A DNA stretch of 28,058 bases from Monocercomonoides exilis PA203 (Eukaryota > Protista > Preaxostyla), in the NCBI GenBank assembly GCA_001643675.2, contig LSRY02000092.1:1-28058 (forward strand). The letters are read 5' to 3'. A program made the position numbers and the translations under genes. Under the pieces are notes generated by a model that worked only from the letters and a program-made list of their open reading frames with translations, was not told the DNA's origin and did no database searches. Shown in pieces: positions 1 through 27,795 of the stretch (its first letter is position 1; the number at the start of each line of letters is the position of its first letter).

Positions 1-2425
1 AACCTAACCTAACCCTAACCCTAACCCTAACCCTAACCCTAACCCTAACCTAACCCTAACCCTAACCTAACCTAACCCTAACCTAACCTAACCCTAACCT
101 AACCCTAACCCTAACCCTAACCCTAACCTAACCTAACTAACCTAACCCTAACCCTAACCCTAACCCTAACCTAACCTAACCTAACCTAACCTAACCTAGC
201 CCTAACCCCTAACCCTAACCTAACCCTAACCTAACCTAACCCTAACCCTAACCCTAACCTAACCCTAACCCTAACTTCTTTAAGCCCTAACCCTAACCCT
301 AACCTAACCTAACCCTAACCCTAACCCTAACCCTAACCTAACCTAACCTAACCCTAACCTAACCCTAACCTAACCTAACCCTAACCTAACAACCTAACCC
401 TAACCTAACCCTAACCTAACCTAACCTAACCTAACCCTAACCCTAACCCTAACCCTAACCCTAACCCTAACCCTAACCCTAACCTAACCCTAACCTAACC
501 CTAACCTAACCCTAACCCTAACCTAACCTAACCCTAACCTAACCCTAACCCTAACCTAACCCTAACCTAACCTAACCTAACCTAACCTAACTAACCTAAC
601 CTAACCTAACCTAACCTAACCTAACCCTAACCTAACCTAGTTTGAACCTAACCCTAACCTAACCCTAACCTAACCTAACCCTAACCTAACCTAACCTAAC
701 CTAACCCTAACCTAACCTAACCTAACCCTAACCTAACCCTAACCCTAACCCTAACCCTAACCCTAACCCTAACCTAACCCTAACCTAACCCCAACCTAAC
801 CTAACCCTAACCTAACCCTAACCTAACCTAGTTTGAACCCTAACCCCTAACCTAACCTAACCTAACCCTAACCTAACCCTAACCTAACCCTAACCTAACC
901 CTAACCTAACCCTAACCCTAACCCTAACCTAACCCTAACCCTAACCCTAACCTAACCTAACCTAACCTAACCCTAACCCTAACCTAACCTAACCCTAACC
1001 TAACCTAGTTTGAACCCTAACCCTAACCTAACCTAACCTAACCTAACCTAACCCTAACCTAACCCTAACCCTAACCTAACCCTAACCCTAACCTAACCTA
1101 GTTTGAACCCTAACCTAACCCTAACCCTAACCCTAACCTAACCTAACCCTAACCCTAACCTAACCCTAACCCTAACCTAACCTAACCTAACCTAACCTAA
1201 CCTAACCCTAACTAACCTAACCCTAACCCTAACCCTAACCTAACCCTAACCTAACCTAACCTAACCTAACCTAACCCTAACCTAACCTAACCCTAACCCT
1301 AACCCTAACCCTAACCCTAACCCTAACCTAACCCTAACCTAACCCTAACCCTAACCCTAACCCTAACCTAACCCTAACCTAACCTAACCCTAACCTAACC
1401 TAGTTTGAACCTAACCCTAACCTAACCCTAACCTAACCCTAACCCTAACCTAACCTAACCTAACCCTAACCCTAACCCTAACCTAACCTAACCTAACCCT
1501 AACCTAACCCTAACCCTAACCCTAACCCTAACCCTAACCCTAACCTAACCCTAACCCTAACCCTAACCCTAACCCTAACCTAACCCTAACCTAACCCTAA
1601 CCTAGTTTGAACCCTAACCTAACCTAACCCTAACCCTAACCCTAACCCTAACCCTAACCCTAACCTAACCCTAACCCTAACCCTAACCCTAACCTAACCC
1701 CTAACCTAACCCTAACCTAACCCTAACCTAACCCTAACCCTAACCCTAACCTAACCTAACCTAACCTAACCCTAACCTAACCTAGTTTGAACCCTAACCC
1801 TAACCTAACCCTAACCTAACCCTAACCCTAACCTAACCTAACCCTAACCTAACCTAACCTAACCCTAACCCTAACCCTAACCCTAACCCTAACCTAACCC
1901 TAACCTAACCTAACCTAGTTTGAACCTAACCTAACCTAACCTAACCCTAACCCTAACCCTAACCCTAACCCTAACCTAACCCTAACCCTAACCTAACCCT
2001 AACCCTAACCCTAACCCTAACCCTAACCTAACCTAACCTAACCCTAACCCTAACCCTAACCTAACCTAACCTAACCCCTAACCCTAACCCTAACCTAACC
2101 CTAACCTAACCTAACCCTAACCCTAACCTAACCTAACCTAACCCTAACCTAACCTAACCCTAACCTAACCTAACCCTAACCCTAAGCCTAACCCTAACCC
2201 TAACCTAACCCTAACCCTAACCCTAACCCTAACCTAACCTAACCTAACCTAACCTAACCTAACCTAACCCTAACCTAACCTAACCCTAACCCTAACCTAA
2301 CCCTAACCCTAACCCTAACCCTAACCTAACCCTAATAACCCTAACCTAACCCTAACCCTAACCCTAACCCTAACCCTAACCCTAACCCTAACCATAACCT
2401 AACCCTAACCCTAACCTAGTTTGAA
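1..2425. repeat. Telomeric array, C-rich strand on +, irregular mix of CCCTAA (TTAGGG) and CCTAA (TTAGG) units; chromosome end lies to the left
   Basis: Continuous CCCTAA/CCTAA units from base 1 to ~2414, then an abrupt change to AT-rich unique sequence at 2426. Confidence 0.97.
636..2425. repeat. Interspersed variant telomeric unit CCTAGTTTGAA (G-strand TTCAAACTAGG), 9 copies
   Basis: Identical 11-mer starting at 636, 827, 1004, 1097, 1399, 1601, 1781, 1914 and 2415; the last copy abuts unique sequence. Confidence 0.95.
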
Positions 2426-3967: not shown

Positions 3968-6100
3968 TTAAATGACTTCAACACATGATTCCTCTTCGTC
4001 TAATTCCCAACCAGTTCCGTCATCTTTTTTCCTCAATCGTTTGTTTCTTTTTTCTTTGCTGTTATCTTCAAACAAATAATCATATATTTCATTTTCGATT
4101 TCCTCATTTTCGTCTTTGCTTGAATTTTCCCTTTTATGATTGAAATGAAACTTAAGTTTTTCCTTTCTGGAAGTTCCTGTGCTCGGCTCTTGAACTTGTT
4201 CAACAGTTCTTCTTCCTTTATCATCAATTTTCACAACTCGTTTGTTTCTCCTTCGATTATTCCTTTCAATAATTGATTCATCTGAAAAATCGCTTTGAGA
4301 ATCATCATCCTCTTCTGCTCTTTTTCTCTTCTTCGCTAACTTATTACAAGTATTTTCATCTTCTTCACAATAAGAATCATTATCTTCATCTTCATCAAGA
4401 ATTTTTCTTTGTTTCTTCTTGCCAATGAACCAACTATCAAATTCCTTCTCAAATGTTAACTGTTTTGCATTCTCCAACACCCCTTTTCGAATCAACACCC
4501 CTTTTCGAATCAACACCCTTATTCGATCTCTCACATGATTTGGAGCTCGGCTTTTGAGTTTTTCAGCTGTAGCATAAATGGATTCACCTTTATTATACAT
4601 TTCAATCACAATATCATCTTCTTCTTTCTTCCAGACTTTGCGTCTCAGATTATTCATTTCATCTCTTTCTCTGTCAATCAAATACTTTTCGAGTTTCTTC
4701 TTTTCCAGTTCCTTCCTTTCTTTCAAACCATCAAAATCTTTAATTTCTTTTATTTTCTGTTTCTTCTTTCTTCGATTTTTCATCATTATTTCTTTTGTCG
4801 TTGATTCTTCTGCCAAATCACAATACAACTTTGCCAAAGTCTCTGCTTCAACCTTTTTGTTCACCAACTGATCTTTCACATATAATCTAACTATCTTATC
4901 TTCAATTCTAGATTTCGAATAAAAGTGATTTGAATCTCTTTCATCGTTAATTTGTTTGTACTTTTTTTCAACCATGTTCTTCAATAATTTCGTCTTCTCA
5001 ACCATCTTTTTAGCAGCATTGCTTTCATACCGATTTCTTTCAACTCTATCAACGTCATCCTTCTCAAAAAACTTCTTCATCCTTCTCTTTACTTCATCGT
5101 TGAATGCCTTTACAGCATTTATTTCCTTTTCGAGCTCGACTTTGAATGATATCCCGTGGAAGACTTCTAAATCAAGAAGAGTTTCGTCAACTTCTCCTGT
5201 ACTCCCTTGTTCATTCGCAGCAACGAGCCTTGAGGATACAATTGTTCGGCGAGCGACCATTTTTATATATCCCATTTGAGCCAAATGCATCGGAGCCCAG
5301 CCGGCAATAAGAGCAGTTTTCTCCAATACTGCTTGTTTAGCTTCTGCACTAGAACCAGCCTTTATCAGTGCACTACATATAAAACCACTTCTAAGAGAGT
5401 GGAAACTAAGGAAATTCCAGTCATAACCTGCGTGACTTGCTCTTTGTCGAAAGCGATTTCCCATGGATGCTGTTGTGATTGGCCATATTCTCTTTTTCGT
5501 GTCAATGGTGTGCTTTTTCGCTTCCCATTCAGATAACTTTATATTGGTTTTTGTTTTCAGATATCGCGAAAGCCAATAAATAGGATCTTGATTGTTTTGA
5601 ACATTTTCTTGACCTTCAATGGTCACTTCATGCGCCCAAGCGAGGATTCCCTTCGCTCGATTAAACCGGAGTGTACATAAAAGGTTCCCCGTTTGCTTGG
5701 ATGTTATGACTTTCACTATATCAGACAGGAAAACATTTGCTAGCGTCACTGCCCGAGCTCCAGTGTGAACGGCGACGAGAAACAACGAGCATTCCATTTC
5801 TTTTGCCCTGCATTTTTCTGGAAAAAGATCGATAATTCGTTGAACATCCCAAAGGAGAGCTGGCTCCTTTTCCTTTCCTTTCTTCAGAACATTTCTGTTG
5901 TGTCGCAAGCAGCAGACTGCTTCACTCATGGCTTGCTTCGTCTTCGCATTTAGCTTCTTTCCTCTCTTTATGATACTGAGACGCTTCAGAGATGGTATGA
6001 TTACATATTTTATTGAATTCAAAGGATAAAAACATTCTTTTCCACAAAACAGGACAAATCCGCGAGCAAGATTCCTTTTGAGGCCAGGGATCACATTCAA
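3968..6100 (-). CDS. Tyrosine recombinase (Crypton/DIRS-type YR) with C-terminal Myb/SANT-like domain and acidic/basic low-complexity tail; main reading frame
   Basis: 710-aa ORF with YR catalytic motifs: HTGAR (R at 5753-5755), RAKG (K at 5651-5653), FHSLRSG (HxxR at 5390-5401), AGW (W at 5297-5299) and MGYIK (Y at 5267-5269). The TTG start is probably not real; the frame is entered from the upstream ORF. Confidence 0.9.
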   Translation of the reverse strand: MNVIPGLKRNLARGFVLFCGKECFYPLNSIKYVIIPSLKRLSIIKRGKKLNAKTKQAMSEAVCCLRHNRNVLKKGKEKEPALLWDVQRIIDLFPEKCRAKEMECSLFLVAVHTGARAVTLANVFLSDIVKVITSKQTGNLLCTLRFNRAKGILAWAHEVTIEGQENVQNNQDPIYWLSRYLKTKTNIKLSEWEAKKHTIDTKKRIWPITTASMGNRFRQRASHAGYDWNFLSFHSLRSGFICSALIKAGSSAEAKQAVLEKTALIAGWAPMHLAQMGYIKMVARRTIVSSRLVAANEQGSTGEVDETLLDLEVFHGISFKVELEKEINAVKAFNDEVKRRMKKFFEKDDVDRVERNRYESNAAKKMVEKTKLLKNMVEKKYKQINDERDSNHFYSKSRIEDKIVRLYVKDQLVNKKVEAETLAKLYCDLAEESTTKEIMMKNRRKKKQKIKEIKDFDGLKERKELEKKKLEKYLIDRERDEMNNLRRKVWKKEEDDIVIEMYNKGESIYATAEKLKSRAPNHVRDRIRVLIRKGVLIRKGVLENAKQLTFEKEFDSWFIGKKKQRKILDEDEDNDSYCEEDENTCNKLAKKRKRAEEDDDSQSDFSDESIIERNNRRRNKRVVKIDDKGRRTVEQVQEPSTGTSRKEKLKFHFNHKRENSSKDENEEIENEIYDYLFEDNSKEKRNKRLRKKDDGTGWELDEEESCVEVI
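4475..4528. repeat. 18-bp in-frame tandem duplication (VLIRKG x2) right after Myb helix 3
   Basis: caacaccccttttcgaat at 4475-4492 and 4493-4510, with a degenerate third copy at 4511-4528. Confidence 0.9.
4511..4645 (-). other. Myb/SANT-like helix-turn-helix domain within the YR ORF
   Basis: RRKVWKKEEDDIVIEMYNKGESIYATAEKLKSRAPNHVRDRIRVL fits the Myb pattern W-x-x-EED...IA..L..R....(K/R)xR. Confidence 0.75.
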
Positions 6101-6626
6101 CTAGCTTCGAATATGTTTCCAACAATGTATTCACCCATTTGTGCTTCTTTTTTGTGGCGTTTGACCAGATGCTTCCAAGTTTCATATACTGCTGTGCAAC
6201 TTCTTTCTGGACTCTTGCAACTGCGATGTCCATTTTCGTTGTTCTGTGATAATCACTTGCACTATCTTTTTCTTTTTCTTGATCAGAAGTTTTGCCTGAA
6301 GTTGCTGATGAAGAAGATGATGAGGGTGGTGATGGTTTGTTCTCATTATCATTCGATATGTCTGAAATATCATGAAGTTGTTTATTTAGTATTTCTTTTG
6401 TTTCTTTTTCAACTTCTCTCAAATTTTTAATTGCACAAAGAGCATCATTGATATCCTTATCTTTTATTTTGTCATTGATTGTATCATCTATTTCGCTTTC
6501 CTCTTCTTCTTCTTCTTCTATATTTTCATCGGATTCTTCAAAATCTTCTGTTTCTTCTGAGTCTTCGAATTTATCTTCGGATTCTTCTTCATCATCTTCG
6601 CTTTCTTCGTCAAATGAACTGATTTT
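6075..6626 (-). CDS. N-terminal part of the same YR gene (acidic linker and start of the core-binding domain), joined to the main frame by a +1 frameshift near 6075-6085
   Basis: The frame of ORF 5922..6422 is open from 6626 (KISSFDEESEDDEEE...LREVEKE...WSNATKKKHKWVNTLLETYSKLVECDPWP). It continues naturally into (K)RNLARGFVLFCGKECFYPLNSIKYVIIPSLKRL of the main frame. Confidence 0.7.
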
Positions 6627-7921: not shown

Positions 7922-8029
7922 ACATATCTTTCTTGGACCAGTGTTCTATCTTCTTGGGAAAACCTGTGTTGTTGAATTCCTTTTTCCTTTTGACCACAAG
8001 GAATTTGTGGACTTTCTGCTCGAAGATAT

Positions 8030-8269
8030 GGGTGATTCTTTTTGAAAAATCACAAATGTTAAATTTTCAAATACTTCAGAAATTACATATTTTGCTCAAA
8101 ATTCTGTTTCAGCTCACAAATCTCCTCGAGAATGTTGGAAATAGCTTTATCAAGTATAAGATTCCATTTTAGTGAAGTTTGATATTTGTTAACAAATTAT
8201 TTGGCAAAATATGAAATTTTTGATTTATTTGAAAATTAAACATTTGTAACTTTTCAAAAAGAATTACCC
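8030..8269. mobile_element. MITE (~240 bp), copy 1
   Basis: TIRs gggtgattctttttgaaaaatcacaaatgtt / aacatttgtaacttttcaaaaagaattaccc, with imperfect inverted symmetry to ~70 bp. AT on both flanks. Homologous to 18922-19155. Confidence 0.85.
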
Positions 8270-8554
8270 ATATTCATTTAAAAAATTTTCATTTTGTAAC
8301 TTCTCATTATTTTTTTTTTTTTTTTTTTTTGTGACAGACAGCTGCAAAAAATGGAAAAAAGCGTAACACAGGTTTATTGAATATATTCAAATTGAAATTC
8401 TATTATAAAAATAGTCAAGATCCAATATCAAAAAATAATATTTTCTCGTGATCAAATACATAATATATATTGAGAGCTTTGAAATTTTAACAATTGACAT
8501 TATCTCTTTATATATTGCAGAATAATAAGCAAAATCGAAACAGTGAGCAGTAGA

Positions 8555-10388
8555 ATGGAATACAAAACAAATGCGAGTAATGATCTCTATTTAAAGGACG
8601 AAAAAGGAAAAACAAAAGCAATGCTATGGATTGCTTGAGAAAAGAACAGATCCTCCATTAGAAATTCGTCATAGTATCACTTTTACCGATGAGGACGGAT
8701 GGACAATGGCCATGTACTGGATTGCATATGTTAAAACAGATCCACCAGAATGGATGAGACACAATATCTCATTTACCAATGAATGTGGAGAAACAATGGC
8801 AATGTTGTGGATAGAGAATGTGAAGAAAGAACCGCCGGAATGGATGAGGCACGGAATAACGCTATATAATAAAAAAGGAAGCACAATGGCTATGCAGTGG
8901 ATTGTGAATGTCAAAGCAGAGCCACCAGAGTGGATGAGACACGACATCATGATTCGCGATAAAAAAGGAAACACAATGGCCATGTACTGGATTGCATATG
9001 TTAAAACAGATCCACCAGAATGGATGAGACACGAAAATACATTCGCAGACAAAGGAGGACGAACAATGGCTATGATATGGATTGAATATGTGAAGACAGA
9101 ACCACCGAAATGGATGAGACATGGAAGTTCATTTCCTGATAAAGACGGCAAAACAATGGCCATGCTGTGGATTGAACTCGTGAAGACAAATCCACCAGAA
9201 TGGATGAGACACGACGTAGCACTCAAAGATAATGACGGGTGCACAATGGCAATGCTGTGGATTGAGAATGTTAAAGCAGACCTTCCTGAATGGATGAGGC
9301 ATGATATTACTCTTGGAAATAAGAAAGGAAAAACGATGGCAATGATATGGGTTGCAAATGCTAAGACAGACCCACCAGAGTGGATGAGACATAACAACGA
9401 AGTTGCAGACAAGAAAGGACGAACAATGGCCATGCATTGGATAAAGGAAATCAAGACTGAACCTCCAGAATCCATGAGACACGTAATCACTCTTGCAGAT
9501 AAGGAAGGACAGACAATGGCAATAATATGGATAATATATATCAAAATTGAGCCACCGGAGTGGATGAGACATGGAATTACACTTGCTGATAACAACGGAA
9601 GAACAATGGCCATGTTCTGGATTGAAAATGTAAAAACTGAACCTCCTGAATGGATGAGACATTGCATCACTGTTCGCGATAAGTGTGGAGACACAATGGC
9701 CATGTATTGGATTGCAGATGTCAAAGCAGAGCCTCCAGAGTGGATGAGACATGGAATAACGCTTGCTGATAACGACGGAAGAACAATGGCTATAATATGG
9801 ATTGTTTGCGTTAGAACAGAACCACCAGAATGGATGAGGCATAGCAATGAACTTTCCTGTTCGTATGGCCGGACAATGGCCATGCAATGGATTATATTTG
9901 TGATGACAGAACCGCCAGAGTGGATGAGACACGATATCGCACTTCGCAACAATAATGGCTTAACAATAGCTATGACATGGATTGCTTATGTAAAAACTGA
10001 ACCTCCTGAATGGATGAGACACGGAATTACTATTTGCAATAAATATGGATGGACAATGGCTATGATATGGATTGCAAATGTCAAAACTGAACCTCCTGAA
10101 TGGATGATACATGGAATTACACTTGCTGATAACAAGGGAAGAACAATGGCTATGACATGGATCACAAACATCAAAACAGAGCCACCAGAATGGATGAGAC
10201 ATGAGATAACGCTTCGAACTGAGAAAGGAAATACAATGGCCATGTTCTGGATTGCAAATGTGAAGACTGAACCTCCTGAATGGATGAGACATGGAATCAC
10301 TGTTCGCGATAAGGATGGAGACACAATGGTTGATTATTGGAAAAACAATTTAATAATTGACCCACCAGAATGGATGAAGACAGATTAA
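8555..10388 (+). CDS. Tandem-repeat protein, ~20 x 30-aa ankyrin-like units (consensus EPPEWMRHGITLADKxGxTMAMxWIxxVKT)
   Basis: ORF 8631..10388 holds 19 full 90-bp units plus partial ends. An ATG at 8555 (MEYKTNASNDLYLKDEKGKTKAMLWI) encodes another partial unit, joined by a +1 frameshift at ~8630-8633. The D-x-x-G-x-T-x-hydrophobic segment resembles the ankyrin beta-hairpin/helix-1 motif. No introns seen. Confidence 0.85.
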
Positions 10389-13300
10389 TCAATATAAATG
10401 CGAAAGATCATTTCATTGGAAATGAAATTCATTTTCTGAATTTCAACAAATCAACATTTCACTTCTTGTCTGAATAAAAACATTTGTCGTTCATGAGACA
10501 AAATGTTTGATGTTAGAATGTTCTTTCTTTCTTTCTTGAATAGATTTTCGATCTTTCGATGAACATTTGGACATTCTTCAAAAAACATTCATTTTTGAGC
10601 TTTTCCTTTTGCTTTTTCATTGCTTTGATGTTTTCTTTCCAAATGTGAAAATCATTTCATTTTTTGTATTTTTAATTTTCTTAGATCTGTCAAAACAGTC
10701 CATTCTATTTTCTATAAAAATGTGCTTATTGGTAAGTTTATTGATTCAGATGAGTCTTTATTTTTTTCCATTCATTTCCATTTCACAATATAAACTGATA
10801 TCGTAAGTTCGATTTTTTCTTTCAAAAAACAGTCAAGAAATCAGAAGAAATAAAAGAAGAAAGTTGAGAGGTTGAGAATTAATAAGGATTAACAATCTTT
10901 TTCAAACTGTAATTTTGAGTTTTGGACAAGGTTTATGAGAAAGAAGCAGGAGCAACAAAAGAGTCAGTTGCCTTTTCGGTTGAAATTATGAGCATGGTCT
11001 TAAACTCCAGATTTCATCAAAATAGCAGGAAAAAATTGAAAGATAGAAGATTATTTGAATAAATGGATGGAACCAAAAGTGGTTGAGTAATCTTCACTTT
11101 TAATCCTTGTAGATAACTGAATTCACAATCATTCTCAAATTGTGTGCAGAACTTTAATGCTCGAACAGAGTTCTTTCAGCAATTCGTATCATGCATTTTA
11201 TTGATTTCGCTCTTTCTTGTTTCAGATCGTAAAACATCTGTTGATCGCTCAGCCATAAAACGGATTCGGCAAGCTTATTTTCAGTGAAAGAGAAAAATTG
11301 TGTTTGCAAAGAAAGATGTTCCAAAAGCATCCTACGAAGAGAAAGACGAACAAAACGAAGAAATTGATTTCAAAATTGATTTTTCTGTTTTATTACTTCC
11401 CGCGCTTTTAGCATTTTTAATTTGAAAATCAATCCGTGTTTTGTAATTTGCCTTTTTAACATCTCGACGTTCAAAACTCGAAATCTTCATCGATTCATTG
11501 ACAGTTTCCACAATTATCTTTCACCGTATTCCTCATTTGTCAGAAGAACGCATTTCCATTGTACGATAAAACAGCAGAAAAACGATTATTCAATGTGTCA
11601 GACCACAATCAGGAATTAATTTCCTGAGCAAGTGAAGATCCTTCCATGAATAAAGCCGTGTTAACGGATGAAAGGCGGCTGAAGTTCAAAAACGTGAGAC
11701 GTCTTATTTGAAGACAATGGAAGCTGTGTGAATATTGAAGAGTTGCTCGAAAATTGAGGAATGAAGCTTTGCGATTTTAAAAATTGGTTAAAGAATGAAT
11801 GGAAGAGGAGATGAGAATGAATAATGACATGAATTTACTTTTGTTCGAAATGAAGACCCCGAAGTATTCGAGCGGAAAGGCATCAAAAATCTGATAAATC
11901 TGTTCATTTGGCGAGAAAATTGAAAAAGAGATTGCTTCTATCAGCTCAAAAATTATAGAATTCGGATATTTCTCTTTCGTATTTAGTATTCCCATTGGCT
12001 TCTCTGTTAATAACTTTCCAAAGAAAACACTTTTTGCAACATTACCGTTTTAAATACGTATAACCTGCTTCTTTTCCTCTTCCTCTTCTTCTTCTTTCAT
12101 CCCAATAAACAAAAAATGAAATTGCTGCTTTCTTTGTCTTCAATGCATCAATAACTTAAGCTTACTGAAAACGCTCAAACACACTGCAACATAATTTCTG
12201 CAAGGCAACTTTTCTGGATCAGATTGTATTTTTGTCCAACGAAAATTAATTCACATATTTATAAAAATAGTTTACTCAGATTATGATTGAAGCACATGCC
12301 CACACGGCTGTTGTAGATGTGCACCACCACAGCACGGAAAAGGCGATTCTGTGGAAAGAGCTGTCTTTGAACCAGCTGAGCTACGCGTTTACCCGCGAGC
12401 TAACACCAGCTGATGAGACATTCAACCACTACGATGGCCTGCTCTACACAGAGGCTGGCATGAGCTTGCTGCAGAATTGACTACGCCTGCCATTCTATTT
12501 GGGTGCTGCTCCTGTGGGAAGAAAGTCGTTTTGAAGATTGCATTCCAGATGCTGAATCAATACGAAGCGCGTTTTAAGTTTGAGAGAGGGAGAAAAGAAG
12601 AAGCTACTGAAATATACTTTCTGGAGCAGGTGCCCATCGGAGAGGTGGATGCACTTTTGCAGTCGATTGTGCTGCGGAACGAAGGAGGGACGAGCATCGA
12701 CAACAGACTGGACCTGTCTGATGTGGAGCGGCTGAATGCGTCTGCGACTTATTTCCCTCTGTTTGAGTGTTCTATCACGAGAGGGATTGTACCTGCTATG
12801 AAAAGCAGGCAATATATTGGTGCTTCCATTCGCTGATGAAAATAGGTTATTTTGTGAGGATTCCAATCAAGCTGGAAAGCAGAAACAGTTCAATGAATGA
12901 GATGAACGAGAATGTTGGAGGAGGCTCAGGGGAAGAGGAAGAAGCAACGAAATGGAAAGCATCGTAGGCACATGGAGCCAGTGCTGCAAGCGCTGTTGGC
13001 AAACAACGACTTTATCGCAAAGGAAGGAGCAGAGCTGCTTGTGAATGAGAAAAAGACAAAGATTTCCCTCACAACAGGGAAAAATCAGAAGGCTTCCTCC
13101 TCCTCCTTCTTCTTATCCTGTGCCATCTCAGTCTTCCTCTTCCTCCTCTCTGGAAATTTCCCATCAGCCAAGCATCCGCAAACAGCCGAGAGTGAGTGTC
13201 ATTGAGCGCATGACGAAGTCGCAGGGCATTCAAATAGCCTCTCGACTTGTGCAGTTCCGCCCTGCCCTGGAAAAGAGAGAGAGAAACGAGAACCAGTTTC

Positions 13301-18364: not shown

Positions 18365-19560
18365 TAAGGGTGATTATTTTTGAAATCAAAACTTTTGGGA
18401 GTGATGATAAATCAAAGGTTTTATTTTTAAAGATTGTTTATTCATTCAAAAGAAAAAAAGAATGATTGTTCGATATGACAATGTTTGAGATTTTATTCAT
18501 GAAAAATTATCTTTGAAAAAGAATTGATTTATCTGTATTCATAAATACATATTCAAATTGAATTTTCAAACAGAAATTTATGAATTGAAAAATATGGATT
18601 CAATAAGAATCACATATAATTATATATTTCTGATTGACACATGATTAAAATACTAAACATTTGAGTGTTTTAGAAAACAATGTGAAAATTATTTGTGTTT
18701 AATAAATTGCATATGTCAAAATTTTTTGAAAAGTTCTATTTGTTTTATTTTCAAATAAAATAAAAATTTCATATTTCGATCAAATTCCTGTTTTCACTTA
18801 CGAAACCACACCAAAACGGATAAAATTACGTTGTCAAGGATTTGTTTCAATTACAGCAAAATTTGGTGAGTGAAAACAGAAATTTAATCGAACTATGAAA
18901 TTTTATTTGAATTAAACAAATGGGTGATTCTTTTGAAAAGTCACAAATGTTTAATTTTTAAATGAATCAAAAATTTCATATTTAGCTCTTATATTTATAA
19001 ACATTCAGGAAACTTCACTTGAATTCATGAAACTACATTATCCAATAATGGATTCCATGTTTGTGAAGTTTGGTTGATGTTATCAAAATTTTGAGCAAAA
19101 TATAAAATTTTGATTCATTTAAATTAAACATTTGTGACTTTCAAAAGAATCACCCATGGTACTTTTAAAAAATTAACATATCGAAAAATTTTCAACAGAA
19201 TGTTTTTGTGATAAACATATTGTGAATTTATTGAATCACATTGATTATTTGCTATGAAAATGGAATTGAAATTAATCAGTTGAAAATTTCAAAACTGTAT
19301 TGGGTATTATTTTTGATTGCATATTTGAACTATCAAAATTCTCTGTTAGAGAATACAAATTGACTTCTAATTAATAAACACTGAACAGAAATAACTTCAT
19401 TCAAAATTATATTTTTCATAAGAATAATATGAAAAATCGAAGTTTAAAATAAATTGTTGGTGTGAATTTATTTAATGAATGACGAATTCCTTTCCCTTGA
19501 AACAAAATCATCCAAAAATCAATACTTCAAAAAAGTTATGATTTCAAAATAATCGCTTTA
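18365..19560. mobile_element. Older ~1.2 kb non-autonomous TIR element containing MITE copy 2
   Basis: Left end taagggtgattatttttgaaatcaaaacttttgggagtgatgat (18365-18408) versus reverse complement of the right end taaagcgattattttgaaatcataacttttttgaagtattgat (19518-19560). Very AT-rich, ORF-free interior. Confidence 0.55.
18922..19155. mobile_element. MITE (~234 bp), copy 2
   Basis: Near-perfect TIRs gggtgattcttttgaaaagtcacaaatgtttaattt / aaattaaacatttgtgactttcaaaagaatcaccc. AT flanks. Interior shares gattccat...gtgaagttt with copy 1. Confidence 0.88.
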
Positions 19561-20554: not shown

Positions 20555-22007
20555 TCACAAAATAATCAGAAATATTTTTGATAACCCTCTATAATATTTT
20601 TCATAAAGAAAAGAAATTACTCCATAAAAGCTGACAAAGCTGTCTTCGTATCCTTCTTCTTCCAGCTTTTCAAATATCTCCATTTTGATTGCCTTTCTTT
20701 TCATTTCATCATTTTCACTTTTCTCCTTTCCTTTCAATCGCCTTGAAATGCTCTTATAGAAATGCAGGATTTTGTTTGCCATTTCGTCAACAATTGTTGT
20801 CCCATGAATCTCCTCCAAAACAGCATCAATTGCTCCACCTTTCAGCAAATCATCAACTTTCACATCTTCAACATCTGAAGCAAGTTGAAGTAAATACATG
20901 CTTCTGTTGCAAATTTCTCCATTATTATCCTTACCTGCATAAAATACTTGAACAATCCTGTAAATTAGCCTTGAACAGTCTTCAATTCTCAATTGACAGC
21001 AGAAAATGAAATTCTTCAATGTTCGGCTCCATGAAATCAAAAGAATCTCTTCTTTCGTTTCTTTTCTTTTTCCATTTTCCTCTTCTTTTCTCTTCCAATC
21101 CATACATTTTGAAAGCTCTTCTAATTCTCTCTCTGCTTCTCTCACAAAATGCAGTTCTTTCGTAATCACTTCTTCCAAGCTTTTGTCATTGGAAAAACTT
21201 TTAATCAAACAATCCCAAGCAGATAAATAGGCAACATGAGTCAAATTGCGATGTTCCTGATGATATTGGATTATCTCTTTGACCACATTCAAGTACAATC
21301 CTTGATCCATTTCCTTATTTAAAAAAATGAGAGAAAAATCCAAAAAGAAAGAAAAGAAAGAAAATAAATACACTCATACATTATATAGATAATTGATCAA
21401 GGCCAACAATGCTATTTCCACTTCTTTTTGGTTTCTTCATTATCCTCTTTGTTCGATGCAGCTTTCAGAAGGCAAGGAACACAAATTGATTCCAATTCAT
21501 TAGAAGTATCATCATCTTTCAGTAAAACAAAGCATTCGCAAAGATCGACCAGAAAATTTTCATTCTTTTTCCTTTCTTCTTCTCATTTTCATAAATAATT
21601 ATCTTCTCAAATCTTTTGTTCAGTGAAGAATATTTAAAGTCAAAGATCCAAATTCTTTTCAGCACATTGTAATATCCAGCATGCTTCAACAACAAAATTG
21701 CGTTTCTCCACGATAATGTCTTTTCTTCAATCATTTTGTCCATTTTATCAAACAGTTTTGTTCTGAAAATGGATATGAATTCTTGTTCATTCATTTCCTC
21801 AATCATTCCGTTCATTTCAAGGATTGTATGCTTTTGTTCAATTTCATTACAGTGTTCCAGCTTGCGAAGAAATTCTTCCAAAATTATCGAAACATGTCAA
21901 ATAAAGTTCTTTAAAACAATAGATTAAATTCACACACTTGAAAACCTGTCTGCAAGGGAAAGCTCCTGAACATTGTCAATGGATTTGTCTTCATAACATA
22001 TTTCCAT
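20555..22007 (-). CDS. 3-exon hypothetical alpha-helical (ARM/HEAT-like) protein of a multicopy family, paralog A, with frameshifts
   Basis: ATG 22007; GT-AG introns at 21937..21875 and 21379..21314. Motifs ICVPCLLKAA, KEVEIALLAL, EIIQYHQEHRNLTHVAYLSAW, ELHFVREA, KGGAIDAVLEE and KLEEEGYED are shared with paralog B. Frameshifts in A-runs near 21570, 21430 and probably 20575. Confidence 0.8.
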
Positions 22008-26329: not shown

Positions 26330-27795
26330 ATGCATTCATCTCAAAAATTTTTGGGTTTGTTTTAATCATAATTTTCTGTGTTTAATAACAATGTTTTTTA
26401 ATTTCTAAATTTTTAGAAATACTTTCCGAATTGGAAAAATATTCTATTGATGAACAAAAACAAAAGGTTGTTGAAATGAACGCTCTGTTTGACAAGATGA
26501 ACAGAGTTGAACTTAAATCAATTTTTACATCGATATTGTTCAAAAGAATTGACGAATTAACAGAGGAAAAGAATGTGCACTTAGAATATGTAATATTGCT
26601 ATTGAAATATGCTGGCTGCTACAAAGTATTGAATGGCTTGATGAGCATTAGCTCTTGCATTTCTTCATTGGTACAAAAAATAGAAAAGATGATTTTTGAG
26701 GAATGGAAGAAAAAAGGAGAAAAGAACGAAACGCTTCTAATTGATCTTTTTGAAAGCTATTTTACTGTTGGTAACTATTTTACAAAAAAAGTTATATCAA
26801 TCGGCGTGCCATTCCTTTTGAAAGTTGCTTTGAGAAAAGATACAAATACAGAAATCAAAGAAGTGGAAATGTCATTATTGGCTTTAAGTTGTATTCAATT
26901 ATCTGAAGTTTGAAATTTTCATTTTCTTTTATGATATTTTAGTGTTTCTTTCTTTCTTTCTTGAATAGAAATTAGATAAAAAAGCATATTTAAGTTATGC
27001 TTCAGAAATCATCAAATATCATCAGGAGCATCGCAATCTGACACGACTTGCTTACCAATCCGCTTGGTGTTTTTTGTTGAGCAGGTTAGAAAAAGAAAGA
27101 AAACTCGGATATATTATTGTGAACAAGCTTCATTTCGTAAAAGAAGCAATAAGAGAATTTGAAGAGCTGCTGGGGCGTGTGCAATGGAAAGAAATGAAAA
27201 GCAGAAAAAAAGAAACAAAAGAAATGTGGATTATCAAAAGGTGGATTTCGACACTTTATTTGTGTTTTGATAATTGCACCCTTAGCAGTGAAGATAATGT
27301 GAAGATGGTTGCATGCGTAGTGAAAGTGGGGAGGGAAGCAAGATGCGCCAGAAGAAAAATCAACGAAAAATGTGTTGATCTATTTAATTTAATCGTTGGG
27401 GCTACAAATATACCCTTTGAAGACATTGCTAAAGGCGGAGCAATTGATTTTGTTCTGGAAGAGCATTATCAAACAACAATAGAATATGTGACAATACCCA
27501 GAGGTGTTTGATATTCATGAGCTCTCTTCTATTCAGAATGAGAGCAAGAAAGGAGAAAATGAATACGGTTGTGTCATTTTTGGCTCCGATTTGGTGTAAA
27601 CTGACCAGAAAGGAAAGCGAAAGCGCCTTTCAGGCAAAAACAGAAGCAGAGAAAAGAATGGCCATTGACAAGCTGGAGGAGGAAGGATACGACGACATCG
27701 TTGTCAGCTTCTATGGGATGTTTAATGGGGACAAGTACTATTTTCATGTTTCAAAGAATTTTACGGATTACTGTATTCATTGCAAGGCCTCGTAA
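26330..27795 (+). CDS. 3-exon hypothetical alpha-helical protein, paralog B, one frameshift near 27500
   Basis: Putative ATG 26330; GT-AG introns 26355..26416 and 26908..26968 at positions equivalent to paralog A. Motifs IGVPFLLKVAL, KEVEMSLLAL, EIIKYHQEHRNLTRLAYQSAW, KLHFVKEA, KGGAIDFVLEE and KLEEEGYDD. Confidence 0.8.

What the first reader, a model, noticed from the sequence alone, without database searches (positions are those of the whole stretch)
8555..10388. 30-aa repeat protein with rigid scaffold and hypervariable positions: candidate modular recognition code
Nineteen units are exactly 90 bp with no indels. PPEWMRH, G-x-TMA and WI are nearly invariant. Variation concentrates at G-x-T (W,E,S,N,R,K,C,K,R,Q,R,D,R,R,L,W,R,N,D), at the residue before WI (Y,L,Q,Y,I,L,L,I,H,I,F,Y,I,Q,T,I,T,F), at the pair after WI (AY,EN,VN,AY,EY,EL,EN,AN,KE,IY,EN,AD,VC,IF,AY,AN,TN,AN) and in the hairpin. 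These roughly match the binding-surface positions of ankyrins, but the unit is 3 aa shorter and a Pro/Trp segment replaces the outer helix. There is no signal peptide or effector domain. It could be a natural DARPin-like binder or a TALE/PPR-like coded reader; that is inference.
Basis: partly seen in the sequence, partly recalled or inferred. Interest (0 to 1): 0.72.

Follow-up and report, generated by a model that had tools for sequence, protein, structure and literature searches.

The report
Shuffled family of shortened ankyrin binders
This gene is one of about 90 related genes in a protist genome, built from a 30-residue repeat predicted to fold like a shortened ankyrin, with a fixed frame, a variable face that likely binds proteins, and blocks shared between genes, so the family likely works as a natural library of intracellular binders, possibly obtained from viruses.

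Summary
Observation confirmed: 18 full 90-bp units plus a C-terminal cap, without indels. The frame from ATG 8555 is broken by one extra base; an intact 610-aa copy lies on contig C53, of which this window is an error-rich duplicate. RNA contigs cover the ORF, not its flanks (one study). Pfam finds no ankyrin, but an alignment-based model (pLDDT 98) matches only ankyrins (Z 14); the outer helix is reduced to a turn. At least 87 loci (about 1,400 units) exist in the genome, 31 within 1.05 Mb of one chromosome. The seven most variable positions are ankyrin positions 2, 3, 5, 10, 13, 14 and 33, the face randomised in designed ankyrin libraries. The scaffold is under strong purifying selection; dN/dS above 1 was not shown. 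The gene is a mosaic of blocks shared with paralogs. There is no small TALE-like vocabulary and no link to the YR-Myb gene. The same repeat occurs on virus-like metagenome contigs and in RING-finger proteins. Best reading: a recombination-diversified protein-binding repertoire, likely for recognising foreign proteins. New variant of a known kind; target unknown.

The parts
8555..10388 (+). Gene for a 30-aa ankyrin-variant repeat protein (610 aa in the C53 copy; frame broken once in this contig)
8606..8696 (+). Degenerate N-terminal capping unit; holds the extra base near 8635-8636 that gives a stop at 8636-8638, probably a consensus error
8697..10316 (+). 18 internal repeats of exactly 90 bp
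10317..10388 (+). C-terminal capping unit and stop; 66 bp identical to the end of a paralog on C30 (L087)
8869..9028 (+). 160-bp block identical to a paralog on C10 (L075)
9007..9460 (+). 454-bp block (5 units, one mismatch) shared with the inverted twin genes at C80:91 kb and 100 kb
8449..8520 (+). Upstream motif shared by 15 of 79 family ORFs; promoter-like or 5'-UTR (inferred); splice-donor and AG not conserved, so probably not an intron
10389..10485 (+). Probable 3' UTR: RNA contigs of two runs of one study end at 10479 and 10485
   Evidence: weak

Best explanation
The gene encodes a repeat protein predicted to be an ankyrin-fold solenoid with a shortened 30-residue unit, one of about 90 paralogs that share sequence blocks and likely form an intracellular protein-binding repertoire, likely for recognising changing foreign (viral or symbiont) proteins. 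How it works: an N-cap and C-cap close a stack of 4-46 units (shown in sequence). Each unit keeps the hairpin and inner helix; the outer helix is cut to a PPEW turn packed by two invariant Trp and two Met (predicted). Seven positions on hairpin and inner helix form a continuous groove (inferred from the ankyrin register). New surfaces arise mainly by in-register recombination through the conserved DNA of the scaffold: multi-unit blocks and short patches move between genes on different chromosomes (mosaic shown; mechanism inferred). With no effector domain, the proteins would act by binding and sequestering targets or by recruiting partners in trans; a subset starting Met-Gly or with a hydrophobic segment may be membrane-tethered (inferred). 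The repeat was probably gained from, or exchanged with, DNA viruses of anaerobic protists (inferred, weak). Odds by step: ankyrin fold 0.95; protein-binding face 0.85; recombination as main diversifier 0.8; non-self recognition 0.45; viral origin 0.5.
For: Fold: model pLDDT 98.1, pTM 0.91; all 50 listed rows of the wide structural search are ankyrin proteins or DARPin fusions, best Z 14.1, rmsd 3.2 A over 174 of 180 residues; Foldseek PDB and viral lists likewise; weak HMM alignment to KANK2 gives the register with a 3-residue gap after helix 2; 11 of 147 homologs hit an ankyrin Pfam model at E<=0.002, 2 above cut-off. Face: the seven highest-entropy columns in 1,027 distinct units map to ankyrin 5, 13, 14, 33, 10, 3, 2; designed libraries vary 2, 3, 5, 10, 13, 33 (PMC4308713, passages) or the equivalents of 2, 3, 5, 13, 14 (PMC10484509, passages; my conversion of numbering); W+Y+F+H are 19% there against about 1% at six other exposed columns. 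Function under selection: core dN/dS 0.03-0.05; 80 of 87 loci in one open frame; RNA contigs of 247 and 386 nt with no mismatch, none on flanks that DNA runs cover. Recombination: mosaic window gene, one junction bridged by an RNA contig (9384-9630); twin genes on C80 differ only by 10 changes in a 23-bp tract over one binding helix in 2,577 bp; silent sites nearly unlinked. Virus link: homologs on gene-dense, AT-rich contigs, one beside a Polinton-like capsid-like gene, one with IleRS, one with eRF1; quick tree nests the family among these.
Against: No ligand and no immune phenotype shown. dN/dS at the seven sites is 0.48-0.79 pooled; single-site values above 1 appear mainly when the site lies at the edge of the compared window, a recombination artefact. 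Only 13 of 87 loci are within 50 kb of a contig end. No RING motif in 79 of 79 ORFs (regex, within the ORF only). The viral nature of the metagenome contigs is inferred from gene content: three scans of IMG/VR found no relative, the capsid-like assignment rests on Atlas features with a low recognition value, and that capsid query found no match in this genome. The 23-bp tract could be a polishing artefact; its exact donor was not among the 79 ORFs. RNA support is from contigs of one study. The tree is quick, 81 columns, mostly unresolved; the one-clade test did not finish.
Confidence: 0.6

Rival explanations
1. Housekeeping scaffolds or adaptors (cytoskeleton, membranes) whose exposed face is merely less constrained; the family grew by duplication and is homogenised by gene conversion, like the ankyrin 'Protein 21.1' family of Giardia (recalled).
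For: dN/dS at variable sites does not exceed 1 when edge effects are removed; 16 of 79 ORFs start Met-Gly and 5 have a hydrophobic stretch; transcripts present in ordinary culture RNA.
Against: Variation is concentrated on one face and rich in aromatic residues, while six other exposed columns are conserved (dN/dS about 0.3); 1,006 different unit sequences among 1,154 units is hard to match to fixed host partners.
Confidence: 0.2
2. A virus-derived gene that spreads by segmental duplication with little benefit to the host; selection only keeps the fold.
For: Intronless ORFs, shared multi-kb flanks between some copies, 7 of 87 loci broken, a few homogeneous tandem arrays (C13, C21, C76), tandem homologs on virus-like contigs.
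Against: Core dN/dS 0.03-0.05 with freely varying silent sites; 80 of 87 frames intact; no shared termini or mobility gene seen around the six copies in C80:1-200 kb; YR gene near only 8 of 87 loci.
Confidence: 0.12
3. A TALE/PPR-like reader in which residues of each unit specify one nucleotide.
For: Exact unit length, long arrays (up to 46 units), a covarying residue pair at 10-11 (highest mutual information); selected DARPins can bind G-quadruplex DNA (PMC4132713, search listing only).
Against: 154 pairs at 10-11, top four 29%; seven variable sites, many hydrophobic; slightly acidic units; ankyrin fold; homologs fused to RING fingers, which points to protein substrates.
Confidence: 0.05

Closest known systems
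Ankyrin repeat (PF00023/PF12796) and designed ankyrin libraries (DARPins, ANK-N5C)
   Same: Hairpin plus inner helix, G-x-T register, capping units, variable positions on the concave face (PMC4308713, PMC10484509 passages).
   Different: 30 instead of 33 residues; outer helix reduced to a 3-residue turn; TMAM.WI replaces the TPLH.AA motif (recalled); no Pfam ankyrin hit for 35 of 35 members scanned at E<=1 among the 25 families shown or for the window protein.
Fungal NLR sensor repeats with high internal conservation (Podospora NWD, NACHT-ANK; PMC4986451, passages)
   Same: Conserved scaffold, variable binding face, repeat shuffling within and between genes, repeat-number variation.
   Different: No NACHT/NB-ARC or effector domain in these ORFs; unit identity about 60-65%, below the 85% of that definition; positive selection not shown here; different repeat.
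Ankyrin gene expansions of giant viruses (Bodo saltans virus, 148 copies; PMC5871332, passages) and viral ankyrin-E3 adaptors
   Same: Many stand-alone ankyrin genes with variable repeat number; virus-like homologs of this repeat lie in tandem arrays; 17 of 150 listed homologs have a RING hit (inflated because the profile held a RING).
   Different: Here the family is in a telomere-bearing nuclear genome, scattered singly among host genes, and lacks RING or captured enzyme fragments.
TALE and PPR repeat codes (recalled)
   Same: Fixed-length tandem units with position-specific variation.
   Different: Different fold; no small residue vocabulary; not basic.

Membership tests
Ankyrin repeat superfamily | Stacked hairpin/helix solenoid superimposable on ankyrins | tested here: met
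   Predicted model, Z 14.1, rmsd 3.2 A, 174 of 180 residues; TM-score up to 0.60 in PDB
Ankyrin repeat superfamily | 33-residue unit with two antiparallel helices (PMC8229355, passage) | tested here: not met
   Unit is 30 aa (1,111 of 1,338 spacings; 1,303 are multiples of 30); second helix is 3 residues in the model
Ankyrin repeat superfamily | Pfam ankyrin model above cut-off | tested here: not met
   None for the window protein; a genome search with PF12796 listed 34 matches, none at the family loci; 2 of 147 distant homologs pass
Ankyrin repeat superfamily | Sequence continuity with ankyrins (homology) | tested here: inconclusive
   KANK1/2 at E 0.2-1.6; Atlas first hit 0.90 to an ankyrin cluster, 166 shared features; P0156, on record with PF12796, aligns at 99.7%
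Fungal NLR-type sensor repeats | Fused NACHT/NB-ARC and effector domains | tested here: not met
   ORFs consist of caps, repeats and short tails
Fungal NLR-type sensor repeats | Repeat exchange within and between genes | tested here: met
Fungal NLR-type sensor repeats | Positive selection on binding-face codons | tested here: inconclusive
   Estimates depend on window framing because of recombination
Fungal NLR-type sensor repeats | Polymorphism between isolates | not testable with these tools
   One genome, no relatives held
TALE/PPR-type code | Small set of specificity residues per unit | tested here: not met
TALE/PPR-type code | Sequence-specific nucleic-acid binding | not testable with these tools
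   needs SELEX
Ankyrin-RING E3 ligase | RING finger in the same protein | tested here: not met
   No RING pattern in 79 of 79 ORFs (downstream exons not examined); no Pfam RING in the window protein
Endogenous viral element | Viral hallmark genes and termini around the gene | tested here: inconclusive
   Neighbours in the window and C80:1-200 kb look like host genes by inspection; one capsid query found nothing in the genome; other hallmark genes not searched

The most novel reading that the evidence does not exclude
A unicellular eukaryote has domesticated a virus-borne, miniaturised ankyrin repeat and turned it into a stand-alone, antibody-like intracellular repertoire: about 90 genes, a third clustered on one chromosome arm, whose binding cassettes are reshuffled by ongoing gene conversion to neutralise proteins of the giant and Polinton-like viruses that carry the same repeat.
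Probability: 0.25. Interest if true: 0.75.

Novelty: new variant of a known kind. Interest (0 to 1): 0.46.

Why it matters
How heterotrophic protists recognise viruses and intracellular parasites is largely open. A clonable, intronless family with about 1,000 natural binding modules makes the idea of a diversified innate repertoire directly testable. The predicted ankyrin without an outer helix is also a smaller natural scaffold for binder design, and a profile of it labels a few hundred unannotated proteins of anaerobic metagenomes, some of them probable E3 ligases. The evolutionary regime itself is known from fungal NLRs, and this scan has noted similar ankyrin repertoires in other protists, which limits the surprise.

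Tried and rejected
Single-sequence AlphaFold failed (pLDDT 41). Pfam, NCBIfam and PHROGs hits to the window protein (YycE-like_C, DUF4926 and others) are additive noise from repeats, with short or no passing stretches. IMG/VR scans: 0 relatives in 3 of 3; GTDB genomes: 46 pattern matches, 0 confirmed; phage tblastn: 2 records at 21% identity, disregarded. Idea that C80 is an integrated virus: rejected, its first 200 kb begin with a telomere and hold host-like genes. Idea of an upstream coding exon: donor and acceptor not conserved, no RNA contig there, so untested rather than excluded. Apparent dN/dS 1.2-1.5 at unit positions 2 and 7: position 2 fell to 0.41-0.47 and position 7 to 0.76-1.00 when away from the window edge; not claimed. 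Syntenic-unit test gave only 7-10 pairs. C-terminal tail in 17 of 79 ORFs: no PDB match below E 0.1; looks like a decayed N-cap. PF26802, on record for 1 of 13 hits (P0029), is not in the library held nor in any paper searched; it may or may not describe this repeat. No paper on this family was found in: ankyrin repeat + giant virus + endogenous + oxymonad, 0; ankyrin + Polinton-like + a genus name, 0; ankyrin + gene conversion + hypervariable + protist + immune receptor, 0; oxymonad + ankyrin, 3 listings, none on it by title and abstract start; supplements were not read and may list these genes. No complex was predicted, as no candidate partner exists.

Full report
Observation. The array is real. 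The frame from ATG 8555 stops at 8636-8638. The window is contig C94 of G000 and begins with a telomere. It aligns over its length with the start of contig C53, with 444 differences including the telomere, mostly missing bases. C53 has only three differences between 8300 and 10500, lacks the extra base and gives an intact 610-aa protein. One DNA-run contig also lacks a base here, though it could come from a paralog. I read the break as a consensus error. RNA contigs from two runs of one study cover about 8775-10485, including pieces of 247 and 386 nt without mismatch, and none lie on the flanks that DNA runs cover. This is moderate evidence of transcription.

Family. A 120-aa query gave 231 matches in G000. 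In the regions I fetched there are 87 loci on 34 contigs with 1,394 motif-defined units, 4-46 per locus; 31 lie in the first 1.05 Mb of C80. An independent pattern search listed 100 of 119 matches and added one new locus; one more on C7 was seen but not fetched. So about 90 loci is a fair estimate. 80 of 87 are in one open frame. Six copies in C80:1-200 kb stand singly among host-like genes. The architecture is a short leader, N-cap, repeats, C-cap; 17 of 79 ORFs add a short tail, 16 start Met-Gly, 5 have a hydrophobic stretch, none has a RING pattern. The tyrosine-recombinase gene next door belongs to a separate family with 112 matches, most near contig ends, and is within 20 kb of 8 of 87 loci. 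That it is a tyrosine recombinase with a Myb-like part is recalled from its motifs; Pfam gave no hit.

Fold. Pfam has no ankyrin hit for the window protein. A single-sequence model failed. With a 100-row alignment, six units folded at pLDDT 98.1: one helix of 8-9 residues and a 3-residue turn per unit. Foldseek against PDB and viral models lists ankyrin-type proteins throughout; the wide structural search gives Z 14.1, rmsd 3.2 A over 174 residues, and all 50 rows are ankyrin domains or DARPin fusions. The tool warns that Z under about 13 can be common for repeats, so the uniformity of the list matters more than the value. A weak profile alignment to KANK2 sets the register, with three residues missing after helix 2. 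Eleven of 147 homologs hit an ankyrin model, two above cut-off, and the Atlas's first hit is an ankyrin cluster (0.90). So this works like an ankyrin and is probably derived from one, but fails the 33-residue, two-helix and Pfam tests.

Variable face. In 1,027 distinct units from 79 ORFs, twelve columns are nearly fixed and the seven most variable are unit positions 2, 10, 11, 27, 7, 30, 29 (3.55 to 2.43 bits). In ankyrin numbering (the consensus is recalled) these are 5, 13, 14, 33, 10, 3, 2. A designed library varied 2, 3, 5, 10, 13, 33 (PMC4308713, passages); another lists the equivalents of 2, 3, 5, 13, 14 as lining the concave face (PMC10484509, passages). Aromatic residues and His make 19% of these columns against about 1% of six other exposed ones. 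The same columns, apart from 27, vary most in 95 units from metagenome loci. A nucleotide code is unlikely: 154 pairs at 10-11 with the top four at 29%, 702 four-site combinations, net charge -0.42 per unit.

Selection and recombination. On nearest-neighbour unit pairs (144-209 pairs per framing, at most 9 differences; more distant pairs dropped) core dN/dS is 0.03-0.05 and the seven sites pool to 0.48-0.79. Values above 1 at single sites moved with the framing, so positive selection is not shown; position 7 is the only site near 1 in all four framings (0.76-1.60). Recombination is the clearer signal. The window gene has a 160-bp block identical to a C10 paralog, then 454 bp shared with twin genes on C80 with one mismatch, then a cap identical over 66 bp to a C30 paralog. 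An RNA contig bridges the right junction of the C80 block. The C80 twins differ only within a 23-bp tract over one binding helix; no exact donor was found and a polishing artefact is not excluded. Differences between close units are clustered (span 59 against 73 simulated) and silent sites are nearly unlinked, which saturation could also produce.

Elsewhere. A profile search found 256 proteins at E<=0.001 and listed 150; the profile also held a RING tail from two homologs, which inflates RING-bearing hits. 17 of 150 have a RING match. A metagenome scan gave 24 loci. The longer ones are gene-dense, intronless and AT-rich: L106 has the repeat gene beside a capsid-like gene whose look-alikes are in parabasalids, Preaxostyla and Preplasmiviricota (Atlas features only; a Metamonada capsid group is described in PMC10120064, passages); L114 carries IleRS and a patatin, L123 an eRF1, L119 two helicases. 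Several short contigs hold tandem repeat genes. I infer giant and Polinton-like viruses of anaerobic protists; no giant-virus hallmark gene was confirmed, and IMG/VR, GTDB and phage collections gave no relative. A quick tree of 76 three-unit blocks (40 of 79 family ORFs) puts the family with L101, L102 and L105 in one branch (support 95) nested among these contigs; the careful search and clade test did not finish. The host looks like an anaerobic gut flagellate; that is recalled, not tested.

Mechanism and comparison. The best reading is a cytosolic binder repertoire: fixed scaffold, variable groove, reshuffled by in-register recombination, acting without a fused effector. The target is unknown; foreign proteins are the likeliest reason to keep a thousand different modules, by analogy with fungal NLR sensor repeats, which show shuffling and selection on the same face (PMC4986451, passages), and with ankyrin expansions of giant viruses (PMC5871332, passages). 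It is not a member of either system: no NOD, no RING, not inside a recognisable viral element. Rivals are a housekeeping scaffold (0.2), a near-neutral viral relic (0.12) and a nucleotide code (0.05).

Novelty. The searches named under Tried and rejected found no description of this repeat; supplements were not read and PF26802 could not be looked up. Earlier notes of this scan report similar ankyrin repertoires in other protists and a 29-residue ankyrin in a phage (unchecked), so the regime is recurrent. What is particular here is the loss of the outer helix, the stand-alone family of about 90 genes, direct mosaic evidence and the shared repeat in virus-like contigs. Verdict: new variant of a known kind, interest 0.46.

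Noticed in passing
window 1-2418: Telomeric array mixing 6- and 5-base units, with a 10-base variant word inserted at intervals.
   Followed up: no
window 3968-6626 (-): Tyrosine-recombinase/Myb-like gene (recalled motifs, no Pfam hit), split here but one 1,017-aa frame in C53; 112 matches in the genome, most near contig ends. May be a telomere-associated element.
   Followed up: partly
window 8023-8285 and 18710-19157: A roughly 260-bp element that matches C80 copies in both orientations and has very high DNA depth: likely a palindromic MITE-like repeat.
   Followed up: no
whole window vs G000:C53:1-28 kb: Contig C94 is an error-rich duplicate of the end of C53; contig depths look single-copy, so other frameshifts in this window are suspect.
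   Followed up: yes
G000:C80:1-1,050,000: 31 of 87 family loci lie on this one chromosome arm, spaced tens of kb apart; unexplained.
   Followed up: partly
G000:C13:946-950 kb, C21:931 kb, C76:75-76 kb: Some members are homogeneous tandem arrays of one, two or four units, i.e. recent internal amplification.
   Followed up: no
window 8769 and 9284: Read contigs show A where both C94 and C53 have T, at depths of about three copies; possible shared consensus errors.
   Followed up: no
L106:876-2567, L121:2166-2543: Capsid-like genes (Polinton-like type; L121 judged by eye only) beside repeat genes.
   Followed up: partly
L114, L115, L119, L123: Giant-virus-like contigs of 19-45% GC with IleRS, eRF1, helicases, a serine recombinase and many unannotated ORFs, absent from the IMG/VR scans.
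   Followed up: partly
P0010, P0057: Homologs with longer spacing and Ank_2 hits, preceded by an unknown N-terminal domain; they recall diplomonad ankyrin proteins (recalled) and may bridge to canonical ankyrins.
   Followed up: no
window 20555-21896 (-) and 26389-27795 (+): Two related multi-piece genes of another multicopy family without Pfam match.
   Followed up: no
G000, 34 matches: Canonical Ank_2 matches lie in separate, often very long frames (up to 7,368 aa).
   Followed up: no
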